From Patescibacteria group bacterium (GTDB lineage Bacteria > Patescibacteriota > Minisyncoccia > Phycocordibacterales > UBA9973), in NCBI GenBank assembly GCA_040384365.1, contig JAZKJK010000014.1, positions 1-54,624 on the forward strand: 54,624 nt of DNA. Reading direction: 5' to 3'. Of the stretch, positions 51,114-52,122 are shown one piece after another. Within the stretch, counting starts at the first letter, position 1, and each line of letters begins with the position of its first letter. A program made the translations under genes and the position numbers. The notes beneath the pieces are model-generated. The model did not search any database and was not told the DNA's origin. It worked only from the letters and a program-made list of their open reading frames with translations.

Positions 51114-51455
51114 ATGAAAAAAGCAATAATTGTAATTATAGTAGTCATAATTATAGCTGCAACTTTCCTTCCAATTTATAATGGCAGGGTCGGAGGTTGT
51201 GGAGTTGTTGAGGGAGGTGGCTGTTGGAATTATAAATTGAATCTTATTGAGTACATTAAGTATAAAAACAATCCTGAATCAGAATTGTTAAAAGAATGTC
51301 CAGATAAAATGATCTGGAATAAAATGCCTTCAACTGGATATTCAAAAATTCCTCGATCTTATTACATTAAAGACGGAGTCCGCAAAGAGATTCAAGAATA
51401 TGACGGTGGATGGCTAAGAGCCAACTGTACTATTTCGGTTCAGGAAGTTTATTAA
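51114..51455 (+). CDS. Hypothetical secreted/membrane-anchored Cys-containing protein
   Basis: N-terminal hydrophobic helix, four Cys, CPDKMIWNKMP. Confidence 0.65.
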   Translation: MKKAIIVIIVVIIIAATFLPIYNGRVGGCGVVEGGGCWNYKLNLIEYIKYKNNPESELLKECPDKMIWNKMPSTGYSKIPRSYYIKDGVRKEIQEYDGGWLRANCTISVQEVY

Positions 51456-51464
51456 CTAGCAAGT

Positions 51465-51488
51465 AACTAGCAAGAACCGTTCTTGCTA
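51465..51488. repeat. 24-nt hairpin direct repeat flanking fic, copy 1
   Basis: AACTAGCAAGAACCGTTCTTGCTA; preceded by an 11-nt tandem duplication TAACTAGCAAG (51453-51474). Confidence 0.8.
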
Positions 51489-51535
51489 CATGATAGTTTT
51501 TTAGAGTTAGCTAAAAATTATGGTATAATGAGGAC

Positions 51536-52090
51536 ATGCAGAATCAAAATGTTGACGAAATCAGTAAGGAACGAGCCAAGAAACTTTTTGGTAGTAATGA
51601 AATAAAAAGTTTTGAAACGGGTACAATCAAGGGTCTACAGCAGATCCACAAATACTTGTTTGGGGAGCTTTATGATTTCGCTGGTCAGATCCGCGTTAAG
51701 GATATAAGCAAAGGCGGATTTCGATTCGCTTCCCACTTATATCTGGAAGAAAGTTTGAATAAAATCGGAGAAATGCCGGAAAATACTTTTGAAGAAATTG
51801 TGGCCAAATATGTGGAGATGAATGTCGCTCATCCATTTATGGAGGGCAATGGTCGGAGTATGAGAATTTGGCTGGATTTAATTTTTAAAAAAAATCTCAA
51901 ACAGTGTGTGAATTGGGCGAAGATCGACAAAGCTGACTATTTAAATGCCATGGAGCGTAGCCCTGTGAACGCCATCGAAATTCGCGAGCTTTTGCGTTCC
52001 GCTTTGACCAATAAAATTGATGACCGTGAAGTTTTCATGAAGGGTGTAGAGCAGTCGTATTATTACGAAGAGGAGGATTTTTATAAATAA
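51536..52090 (+). CDS. fic: Class III Fic protein adenylyltransferase (NmFic-like)
   Basis: Canonical [13 protein letters not shown]-terminal inhibitory helix SYYYE. Confidence 0.92.
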
Positions 52091-52096
52091 TAAAGA

Positions 52097-52122
52097 AACT
52101 AGCAAGAAACGTTCTTGCTAGT
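52097..52122. repeat. Hairpin direct repeat flanking fic, copy 2
   Basis: AACTAGCAAGAAACGTTCTTGCTAGT; 23/24 identical to copy 1; 6 nt after the stop. Confidence 0.8.

What the first reader, a model, noticed from the sequence alone, without database searches (positions are those of the whole stretch)
51453..52122. Class III Fic toxin gene packaged between two REP-type hairpins, with no transposase
Seen: 23/24-identical hairpins AACTAGCAAGAA(C/A)CGTTCTTGCTA, one 47 nt before the ATG and one 6 nt after the stop. An 11-nt duplication of the left arm (TAACTAGCAAG x2) starts at the upstream gene's stop codon and looks like an insertion scar. The gene carries its own leaderless promoter and interrupts a gap...rpiB-IMPase-rpe region. 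Known: NmFic-type proteins are self-inhibited single-gene toxins that AMPylate GyrB. This protein has no evident DNA-binding domain, so an operator explanation is weak. It is the best evidence for non-autonomous cargo cassettes.
Basis: partly seen in the sequence, partly recalled or inferred. Interest (0 to 1): 0.72.

Follow-up and report, generated by a model that had tools for sequence, protein, structure and literature searches.

The report
Fic gene bracketed by REP hairpins
A conserved, self-inhibited AMP-transferase (Fic) gene of a small uncultured bacterium sits between two copies of a hairpin repeat that belongs to a widespread, transposase-linked repeat family, but nothing yet shows that the hairpins move the gene.

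Summary
Two 23/24-identical palindromes (cores 51468-51488 and 52100-52120) are the only copies in the 54.6 kb window, and they bracket a 184-aa NmFic-type gene that has its own promoter.

"REP-type" is supported. The same core, TAGCAAGAAC-N-GTTCTTGCTA, occurs at 130 or more sites in public genomes, 101 of them in Patescibacteria-type records. It is mostly extragenic, and its outer stem covaries. In 11 assemblies it brackets a ~225-aa Y1/HUH transposase whose best structural match is E. coli TnpA-REP (PDB 4er8).

- **"Insertion scar":** the 11-nt arm duplication is a recurrent trait of the family, seen at 32 of 105 sites.
- **"Cargo cassette":** none of the 130 hairpin loci holds a Fic gene. 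Fic is 79-90% conserved across Patescibacteria. It shares contigs with the upstream 113-aa gene in at least 2 relatives. The ends of both ORFs are native.

Most likely, two REP elements lodged in the spacers around a resident, separately transcribed fic gene and now act as RNA 3'-end or insulating hairpins. RAYT-driven movement of the unit remains possible (about 0.2) but is untested. The window also holds its own RAYT gene (12742-13368), which is bracketed by a different hairpin.

The parts
51453..51463 (+). Extra copy of the outer stem plus left half-arm (TAACTAGCAAG). Its first three bases are the TAA stop of the 113-aa ORF.
   Evidence: The same kind of arm piece lies beside 18 (left) and 19 (right) of 105 family sites, against a 1.45% background.
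51465..51488 (.). Upstream REP_A hairpin (core TAGCAAGAAC-C-GTTCTTGCTA at 51468-51488).
   Evidence: 0 mismatches; model R1, 37-39 bits, E about 1e-9.
51500..51529 (+). Promoter-like site TTTAGA-18-(TG)TATAAT, ending 6 nt before the ATG (a leaderless transcript is predicted).
   Evidence: 10 of 12 matches. Consensus match only; no transcript data.
51536..52090 (+). NmFic-type (class III) Fic AMP-transferase gene, 184 aa. Carries [12 protein letters not shown] and the C-terminal SYYYEE.
52097..52122 (.). Downstream REP_A hairpin (core 52100-52120, one C-to-A change at core position 10; 11-bp stem 52098-52108 with 52112-52122).
   Evidence: I23; 29 bits, E about 1e-6.
51114..51455 (+). Upstream neighbour: 113-aa Cys-rich protein with an N-terminal hydrophobic stretch and no family assignment. 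Its C-terminus VQEVY is conserved in 12 of 12 homologue clusters.
52155..52460 (+). Downstream neighbour: 101-aa hydrophobic protein with only weak homologues (31-41% identity). No promoter-like site lies between the hairpin and its ATG, so it may be read through from fic.
12741..13398 (-). The window's own REPtron-like unit: a RAYT-like gene (12742-13368, 208 aa) bracketed by two identical copies of a different hairpin, GTCAAAGAGACACTTTGAC (12741-12759 and 13380-13398).

Best explanation
The two hairpins are members of a RAYT-dependent REP family, here called REP_A, with the core palindrome TAGCAAGAAC-N-GTTCTTGCTA plus 1-3 variable, complementary outer pairs. This family is spread through Patescibacteria. 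In other genomes the same hairpins bracket their cognate Y1/HUH transposase (RAYT_A). There the -35 box (TTGCTA) lies in the right arm of the hairpin and the ATG follows 29-30 nt later.

In this window, two REP_A copies sit in the two spacers that flank a resident fic gene of the NmFic type. That gene is conserved and separately transcribed. REP_A elements usually land in extragenic spots, often just after a stop codon, and tend to cluster, so a single gene caught between two of them is an expected outcome.

Inferred function: the upstream hairpin closes or attenuates the gap-113aa transcript in front of the fic promoter, and the downstream hairpin caps the fic mRNA 3' end. There is no U-tract on the + strand, so the downstream hairpin is more likely a stabiliser or partial barrier than an intrinsic terminator. 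Together they would insulate a potentially growth-arresting enzyme from read-through.

Shown: family membership of the hairpins, the RAYT link in other genomes, the Fic class, and the conservation of fic and its neighbour. Inferred: the order of events (REPs arriving around a resident gene) and the RNA-level role.
For: - 96 of 101 Patescibacteria-type loci have the C-N-G centre, against 0 of 29 loci from other taxa.
- **Stem covariation:** outer pairs 1-3 are Watson-Crick in 73%, 56% and 45% of 105 sites, against 26-30% in shuffles. 0 of 500 shuffles reach the observed covariation, and inner double changes (GGAC/GTCC, TCGC/GCGA) keep the stem.
- **Location:** 53 of 62 sites are intergenic. 22 of the 46 sites that face a gene's 3' end lie within 30 nt of the stop.
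- **Only recurrent neighbour:** the sole protein family that recurs next to the hairpins in Patescibacteria-type records is RAYT_A, with 18 ORFs in 11 assemblies at a median of 5 nt from a hairpin.
- **RAYT_A identity:** Pfam Y1_Tnp, 4 of 5 above the cut-off; NCBIfam REP_Tyr_transpos as the only hit; model pLDDT 95, top PDB fold hit 4er8 TnpA-REP at E 2e-5.
- **Fic is resident-like:** the best 120 homologue clusters are 79-90% identical, and every named one is Patescibacteria. The Fic C-terminus (20 of 20) and the neighbour's C-terminus (12 of 12) are native right up to the hairpins.
- **Co-occurrence:** clusters of the 113-aa gene and of Fic share longest-contig lengths of 17932 and 8050, at similar divergence (about 80% and about 84%).
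- **Different promoter layout:** the hairpin-to-ATG distance is 47 nt in the Fic unit, against 29-30 nt in 7 of 8 RAYT_A units (23 nt in the eighth, L093), so the Fic unit is not a simple ORF swap.
Against: - The only two REP_A copies in 54.6 kb bracket exactly one gene. This is roughly a 4% chance if two elements fell independently among about 55 spacers (my estimate), although the family clusters elsewhere.
- The unit copies features of transposase units: an outer left-arm duplication at the 5' hairpin, a promoter directly after it, a hairpin within 10 nt of the stop, and 632 nt between the hairpins, close to 639 nt (the window's RAYT unit) and below the 718-759 nt of RAYT_A units.
- Elsewhere, REP_A pairs bracket accessory-looking genes: a ParD/RelE pair, a GNAT, a DUF4145 protein and a 'DNA topology modulation'-like kinase.
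- Synteny in relatives rests only on matching contig lengths. Adjacency and the presence of hairpins there were not seen.
- There are no transcript data for the RNA-level role.
- The upstream hairpin's fold is not exceptional in its context.
Confidence: 0.52

Rival explanations
1. Non-autonomous cassette. The segment hairpin-promoter-fic-hairpin is, or was, a mobile unit. A RAYT_A encoded elsewhere in the genome would recognise the two hairpins on one strand, excise the segment as single-stranded DNA and paste it at another REP_A or a similar target, as IS200/IS605 elements and their transposase-less derivatives do.
For: - RAYT_A is itself bracketed by the same hairpins in 8 full-length units, with arm duplications on the outer sides as in the Fic unit.
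- Of the 14 unique single ORFs that have a hairpin within 150 nt on both sides, 5 are not RAYT.
- L038 shows a duplicated segment (hairpin plus the first 66 RAYT codons, 100% identical) bounded by hairpins, so hairpin-linked events can copy adjacent DNA.
- The window's two copies are exclusive to fic.
Against: - 0 of 130 REP_A loci hold Fic.
- No second copy and no empty site are known.
- No RAYT_A lies in the window. The window's RAYT is only 30-36% identical and carries a different hairpin.
- Fic is conserved and probably syntenic with its neighbour in relatives.
- In the papers I read in part (PMC3733652 passages; PMC5581495 abstract), RAYTs are described as single-copy and domesticated, REPtrons are said not to self-propagate, and no cargo is mentioned.
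Confidence: 0.2
2. Integration at a resident REP. A circular fic-plus-one-hairpin molecule recombined with a REP_A that already lay between the 113-aa and 101-aa genes, by a hairpin-by-hairpin exchange analogous to attC recombination. This would leave one hairpin on each side.
For: Removing 51489-52120 would leave a plausible single-hairpin spacer between the two small genes. The two cores differ by only one base.
Against: - The same points as for the cassette rival apply.
- No integrase or RAYT_A is nearby.
- The 47-nt extended identity that might have marked a recombined segment is explained by native ORF ends.
- Copies within one genome share their outer stems anyway, so near-identity of the two copies does not require a local duplication.
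Confidence: 0.1
3. Operator sites. The palindromes are double-stranded binding sites for a dimeric regulator, possibly the RAYT itself, that controls fic.
For: The sequence is a perfect 10-N-10 palindrome. In RAYT_A units the right arm supplies the -35 box, so protein bound there would affect transcription.
Against: - The outer stem positions vary yet stay complementary, which fits a folded strand and not a fixed recognition sequence.
- Sites lie mostly at gene 3' ends and in arrays of 6 (L005).
- At fic, the hairpin ends 11 nt upstream of the -35 box, and the second copy lies after the stop.
Confidence: 0.05
4. Two ordinary intrinsic terminators that happen to look alike.
For: Both follow stop codons. 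29 loci from Clostridia and other taxa carry the same stem with A/T loops and A- and T-tracts, which are true terminator look-alikes.
Against: - There is no U-tract after either hairpin on the + strand. Only the - strand of the downstream copy scores as terminator-like.
- The C-N-G core family and its RAYT link show common descent.
Confidence: 0.03

Closest known systems
REP / RAYT systems ('REPtrons'; E. coli TnpA-REP, Pseudomonas REPIN-RAYT)
   Same: A short extragenic palindrome, mostly downstream of genes, occurring singly, in pairs and in arrays. Stem variants are compensatory. A Y1/HUH transposase gene is bracketed by the same repeat. The fold of that protein is closest to PDB 4er8. For the definitions I saw passages of PMC3733652 and PMC6006769.
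   Different: - The (N)TAG lies inside the stem rather than forming an unpaired GTAG tag. Position -1 is G in only 28 of 105 sites, and it is C in the window.
- The 21-nt core is shared by about 59 assemblies (my count from the table), whereas PMC6006769 calls REPs species-specific.
- Copy number looks low: 2 in 54.6 kb here.
- The -35 box of the RAYT promoter lies in the hairpin at a fixed 29-30 nt from the ATG.
- I found no paper on REP/RAYT in Patescibacteria.
IS200/IS605 elements and their transposase-less derivatives
   Same: Subterminal hairpins lie on both sides of the carried gene. The transposase is related (IS608 and ISDra2 TnpA are the next transposase fold hits after several Thg1 guanylyltransferase chains, TM 0.53-0.63 normalised by target length). 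The unit would need the transposase in trans.
   Different: No repeated copies of the unit are known. The cleavage and guide sites are unknown. The core is a perfect palindrome, so left and right ends cannot be told apart.
NmFic (Neisseria meningitidis class III Fic, PDB 3s6a/2g03)
   Same: Aligned over residues 4-179 with E 7e-75. It has HxFx(D/E)GNGRxxR and the C-terminal SxxxE inhibitory helix, with no separate antitoxin (passages of PMC3667792).
   Different: The motif ends in E, not G/N (SYYYEE), in 20 of 20 Patescibacterial homologues. The target and regulation are untested here.
Integron gene cassettes (ORF plus attC hairpin)
   Same: A single gene is followed closely by a folded recombination-type hairpin, and the previous unit's hairpin lies upstream.
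   Different: There is no integrase or attI, and the gene has its own promoter. The hairpin is about 25 nt long, whereas attC sites are much longer (recalled, not tested). The associated enzyme is a Y1/HUH transposase.

Membership tests
REP (repetitive extragenic palindrome) | Short (20-40 bp) palindrome able to form a stem-loop. | tested here: met
   10-11 bp stems. Across the family, 85.9% of cells are paired and 0 of 500 shuffles reach the observed covariation.
REP (repetitive extragenic palindrome) | Extragenic, predominantly downstream of coding regions. | tested here: met
   Both window copies are intergenic and follow stops. In the family, 53 of 62 sites are intergenic and 6 of 62 lie inside ORFs.
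REP (repetitive extragenic palindrome) | Repeated many times within one genome. | tested here: inconclusive
   There are 2 copies in the 54.6 kb seen, and the rest of the genome is not available.
REP (repetitive extragenic palindrome) | Unpaired GTAG/GTGG tetranucleotide at the 5' foot of the hairpin. | tested here: not met
   The window has CTAG, and the TAG is part of the stem. Position -1 is G in 28 of 105 family sites.
REP (repetitive extragenic palindrome) | A RAYT gene flanked by the same repeat (REPtron). | tested here: met
   Met in other genomes: 8 full-length units with hairpins on both sides, in 11 assemblies that hold RAYT_A ORFs. Not met within the window: no RAYT_A is present, and the window's RAYT carries another hairpin.
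RAYT (TnpA-REP, Y1/HUH transposase), for the protein that accompanies the hairpin elsewhere | Y1_Tnp domain with HUH motif and catalytic Tyr, and a fold like TnpA-REP. | tested here: met
   - Pfam PF01797 at 22.5-29.6 bits (cut-off 23), 4 of 5 above.
- NF047646 at 31.9 bits, below its cut-off of 80.
- NHFH and the Y..N of YIHLNP are invariant in 8 of 8.
- pLDDT 95; 4er8 is the top fold hit at E 1.9e-5, with TM 0.46 and 0.60 normalised by query and target length.
- The profile against PDB sequences is only weak (E 0.012).
Class III Fic (NmFic type) | Active-site motif HxFx(D/E)GNGRxxR. | tested here: met
   [12 protein letters not shown].
Class III Fic (NmFic type) | C-terminal inhibitory helix with (S/T)xxxE(G/N). 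| tested here: inconclusive
   SYYYEE aligns with NmFic SYYYEG. The S and the inhibitory E are present, but the last position is E. The motif definition comes from passages of PMC3667792.
Class III Fic (NmFic type) | Family model above its curated cut-off. | tested here: met
   NF046029 at 294.2 bits, cut-off 230.
Class III Fic (NmFic type) | AMPylates GyrB and auto-AMPylates to relieve inhibition. | not testable with these tools
   Known for NmFic only (passages of PMC12894286).
Mobile cassette / non-autonomous transposon | The same unit at two or more different loci or genomes. | tested here: not met
   0 of 130 REP_A loci hold a Fic homologue. The flanks of Fic homologues themselves were not examined.
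Mobile cassette / non-autonomous transposon | Empty site in a relative. | not tested
Contig-length matches hint that fic and its neighbour stay together.
Intrinsic terminator | G+C-rich hairpin followed by a U-tract on the transcribed strand. | tested here: not met
   No + strand call at either hairpin. Only the - strand of the downstream copy scores as terminator-like.

The most novel reading that the evidence does not exclude
REP_A hairpins and a trans-acting RAYT_A form a gene-shuffling system in Patescibacteria. Any gene caught between two hairpins could be lifted out as single-stranded DNA and pasted at another hairpin. Examples would be fic here, and elsewhere a ParD/RelE pair, a GNAT and a topology-modulation-like kinase. 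On this reading the outer arm duplications are the footprints of such events. That would make 'domesticated' RAYTs cassette movers in the smallest bacterial genomes.
Probability: 0.15. Interest if true: 0.8.

Novelty: new member of a known kind. Interest (0 to 1): 0.42.

Why it matters
REP/RAYT systems have been described mainly in Proteobacteria and a few other phyla (PMC3733652, passages). My four literature searches found no description of one in Patescibacteria. This family is unusual in three ways. One 21-nt core is shared by about 59 species-level assemblies. The transposase promoter is built into the hairpin. Arm duplications recur on the outer sides. If the hairpin pairs do move the genes between them, that would be a new route of gene flux in ultra-small genomes and the first cargo function for a RAYT. 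If they do not, the locus is still a clean case of REPs insulating a potentially growth-arresting enzyme gene.

Tried and rejected
- **47-nt duplication (D1, 81%).** Rejected. Fic ends ...EEDFYK in 20 of 20 homologues and the 113-aa protein ends ...VQEVY in 12 of 12, so both ORF ends are native.
- **Fic as an ORF swap inside a RAYT_A unit.** Rejected. The hairpin-to-ATG distance is 47 nt against 29-30 nt, the -35 box is not in the hairpin, and there is no RAYT_A remnant near 51.4-52.1 kb.
- **Central base N as an orientation mark.** It is inconsistent among the 8 RAYT_A units, so I dropped it.
- **Rfam.** No family matches either hairpin. The single weak hit lies elsewhere.
- **Sequence searches of RAYT_A against the PDB.** A single protein and the 8-sequence profile found nothing. 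The 95-sequence profile gave only weak hits (4er8 at E 0.012).
- **First structure model.** Built from 8 sequences, it was unusable (pLDDT 37). I replaced it with a model from a 95-row alignment.
- **REP_B hairpin.** Absent from all 130 loci.
- **Weak covariance-model hits at 22484-22523.** These are a repeat inside a 506-aa ORF, not REP_A copies.
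Full report
**1. The observation**

A pattern search finds two sites only, 51467-51488 and 52099-52120, and no match in 100 shuffles. The two 24-mers differ at one base. They lie 47 nt before the ATG (51536) and 6 nt after the stop (52088-52090) of a 184-aa ORF.

TAACTAGCAAG is present twice in tandem (51453-51463 and 51464-51474). The first copy starts with the stop codon of the upstream 113-aa ORF.

The downstream copy is an 11-bp perfect stem with a 3-nt loop. 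It folds far better than shuffles do (z -5.5). The upstream copy in its 71-nt context does not (z -1.29).

A promoter-like site, TTTAGA-18-TATAAT preceded by TG, ends 6 nt before the ATG. Later I built a covariance model of the hairpin family and ran it over all 54.6 kb with filters off. It found the same two sites only (E about 1e-9 and 1e-6; next best 0.34).

**2. The gene**

The ORF matches Pfam Fic. It scores 294 bits on the NCBIfam equivalog for NmFic, against a cut-off of 230. It aligns over residues 4-179 with the solved NmFic structures at E 7e-75.

It has the active-site motif [12 protein letters not shown] and, at the C-terminus, SYYYEE where NmFic has SYYYEG. The class III definition is (S/T)xxxE(G/N) after helix alpha-7 (passages of PMC3667792). 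The Ser and the inhibitory Glu are there, but the last position is not.

No antitoxin-like ORF is adjacent. The 113-aa and 101-aa neighbours have no family assignment.

**3. What the hairpins are**

About 9 matches would be expected by chance (my estimate for 596 Gb).

- 101 loci come from Patescibacteria or unlabelled records. 96 of them carry a C-N-G centre, so the core is the perfect palindrome TAGCAAGAAC-N-GTTCTTGCTA.
- The other 29 loci (Clostridia and others) have no C-N-G centre; most have A/T-rich loops between A- and T-tracts and look like unrelated terminators.
- By my count from the table, the Patescibacteria-type loci represent about 59 assemblies.

The one to three positions outside the core vary from site to site but stay complementary. 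They are Watson-Crick in 73%, 56% and 45% of 105 sites, against 26-30% in shuffles. Core variants are mostly double, compensatory changes such as GGAC/GTCC and TCGC/GCGA. On an 87-row alignment, no shuffle out of 500 reached the observed covariation. The core was fixed by the search pattern, so only the outer pairs and the variants found by the fuzzy search are informative.

Copies within one assembly tend to share their outer stem, by eye. For example, most JAPLXP01 copies read GTGTAG...CTACAC and the CAYNYY01 copies read GGTAG...CTACC.

Sites are extragenic in 53 of 62 cases. Among the 46 sites that face a gene's 3' end, 22 lie within 30 nt of the stop. They occur singly, in pairs and in arrays; there are six copies in about 330 nt in L005.

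**4. The associated transposase**

An all-against-all comparison of the 500 ORFs in the loci found one protein family that recurs next to the hairpins in Patescibacteria-type records. It has 18 ORFs in 11 assemblies, at a median of 5 nt from a hairpin. The one other family seen near hairpins in 3 or more assemblies (7 assemblies, median 57 nt) belongs to the unrelated terminator-like loci.

These ~225-aa proteins are 58-78% identical to each other. The evidence that they are RAYT-type transposases is:
- They match Pfam Y1_Tnp, 4 of 5 above the cut-off.
- Their only NCBIfam hit is 'REP-associated tyrosine transposase', below that model's cut-off.
- They keep the NHFH and YIHLNP motifs.
- The family is large: 511 representatives at E 1e-30 or better.
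- A model from a 95-row alignment reached pLDDT 95. Its best solved-structure match is 4er8, the E. coli RAYT bound to a REP hairpin (E 1.9e-5, TM 0.46 normalised by query length and 0.60 by target length). Several Thg1 guanylyltransferase chains (TM about 0.3) rank next, then the IS608, ISDra2 and IS200 transposases.

In eight units the gene has a hairpin on each side, 718-759 nt apart. In 7 of 8 units the ATG lies 29-30 nt after the 5' hairpin. The right arm's TTGCTA serves as a -35 box, 16-17 nt in most units (20 nt in L008) before a TATAAT-like box that ends 5-7 nt before the ATG.

**5. The window's own transposase**

The window contains no RAYT_A. It does contain a 208-aa relative (12742-13368, minus strand). 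This protein is 30-36% identical to RAYT_A and scores E 6e-19 on NF047646. Its only PDB sequence hit is 4er8, at E 0.06.

It is bracketed by two identical copies of a different hairpin, GTCAAAGAGACACTTTGAC, 639 nt apart. These are the only two copies in the window. That hairpin is absent from the 130 loci.

**6. Is fic cargo?**

Against:
- No Fic homologue lies in any of the 130 hairpin loci. Eighty of those loci were fetched with flanks of up to 2 kb and the rest with up to 300 nt.
- Fic is common and highly conserved in this phylum. The best 120 clusters are 79-90% identical, and every named one is Patescibacteria.
- Its C-terminus is invariant up to the stop in 20 of 20 homologues. The upstream 113-aa protein ends VQEVY in 12 of 12 homologue clusters. 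So the 47-nt extended repeat is two native ORF ends, and the repeated element is only about 24 nt long.
- Two of the 12 clusters of the 113-aa protein have the same longest-contig length and overlapping sources as a Fic cluster (17932 and 8050 nt), with similar divergence. One weak homologue of the 101-aa protein shares a 32333-nt contig length with another Fic cluster. This points to conserved linkage.
- The arm duplication is a family trait: 18 sites have a left piece and 19 a right piece out of 105, with 5 having both. Background is 1.45%.

For:
- The only two copies in the window bracket this one gene.
- The unit resembles a transposase unit in its outer arm duplication, its promoter position, its hairpin after the stop and its length.
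- Of the 14 unique single ORFs bracketed within 150 nt elsewhere, 8 are full RAYT_A, 1 is a truncated RAYT_A and 5 are other genes.
- Bracketed or adjacent genes elsewhere include a ParD/RelE-like pair, a GNAT, a DUF4145 protein, a 'DNA topology modulation'-like kinase and several small unknowns.
- L038 carries a hairpin-bounded duplicate of the first 66 RAYT codons.

**7. Verdict**

The hairpins are genuine REP-type elements with a cognate RAYT. I did not find this family described for Patescibacteria. The one preprint that mentions both terms reports a RAYT gene in an archaeon.

It departs from textbook REPs in three ways. The tag is paired inside the stem. The core is conserved across species. 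Copy number appears low. The definitions come from passages of PMC3733652 and PMC6006769, and the RAYT overview from the abstract of PMC5581495.

The most likely reading is that REPs lodged around a resident fic gene and now act as RNA hairpins (confidence 0.52). A RAYT-mobilised cassette or an integration at a REP remains possible (0.2 and 0.1). Operator and plain-terminator readings are unlikely.

The decisive data are the flanks of the Fic homologues, an empty site, and the rest of this genome.

Noticed in passing
window 12741-13398 (minus strand): A RAYT-like gene (208 aa) is bracketed by two identical, same-oriented copies of another hairpin (GTCAAAGAGACACTTTGAC). It starts 5 nt after the gyrA stop (gyrA is 10262-12736). 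This is a complete REPtron-like unit of a second family, and no further copies of that hairpin occur in the window.
   Followed up: partly
L005 1758-2087 (same contig as L070): An array of six perfect REP_A hairpins with repeated linkers (spacings 66, 49, 52, 76 and 66 nt) lies directly upstream of a RAYT_A gene. A GGAC/GTCC variant hairpin follows that gene's stop.
   Followed up: partly
L038 2001-3012: The layout is hairpin, first 66 codons of RAYT_A (100% identical to the full copy), hairpin, full RAYT_A, hairpin. This is a hairpin-bounded duplication of adjacent DNA.
   Followed up: partly
L093 345-1046, hairpin at 835-855: A REP_A hairpin sits inside a RAYT_A ORF without breaking the reading frame. 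It adds a few residues between the catalytic and C-terminal parts.
   Followed up: no
L025, L026, L027, L097 (contig JAPLXP010000003.1, about 249.7-257.8 kb): Eight perfect REP_A sites lie within about 8 kb. They punctuate small genes that are mostly unassigned (a DUF4145 protein, a CDF-transporter fragment and others). This looks like a hairpin-punctuated accessory region.
   Followed up: partly
RAYT_A units in L005, L008, L029, L038, L049, L067, L076: The hairpin-to-ATG spacing is fixed at 29-30 nt. The -35 box TTGCTA lies inside the right arm of the hairpin, and the -10 box ends 5-7 nt before the ATG. The transposase would therefore be made from a leaderless mRNA whose promoter overlaps its own binding site.
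   Followed up: partly
window 51536-52090 and alignment A2: All 20 aligned Patescibacterial Fic homologues carry SYYYEE where NmFic has SYYYEG, which departs from the published (S/T)xxxE(G/N) motif at its last position.
   Followed up: partly
window 22484-22496 and 22511-22523: Two copies of AAGGAC-N-GTCCTT, which is the inner part of a REP_A variant core, lie 27 nt apart inside a 506-aa ORF (21855-23375, minus strand). This is probably a coding repeat.
   Followed up: partly
29 loci, e.g. L006, L011, L024, L028: Clostridia and other non-Patescibacteria carry the same 9-bp stem, but mostly with A/T-rich loops between A- and T-tracts. They look like bidirectional terminators that share the stem by chance or convergence.
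   Followed up: no
proteins P0127 and P0141: One homologue of the 113-aa gene and one of the 101-aa gene are each reported on a contig of 917 nt, from different sources. If that is one contig, it has no room for fic and would be an empty site. It may equally be coincidence.
   Followed up: no
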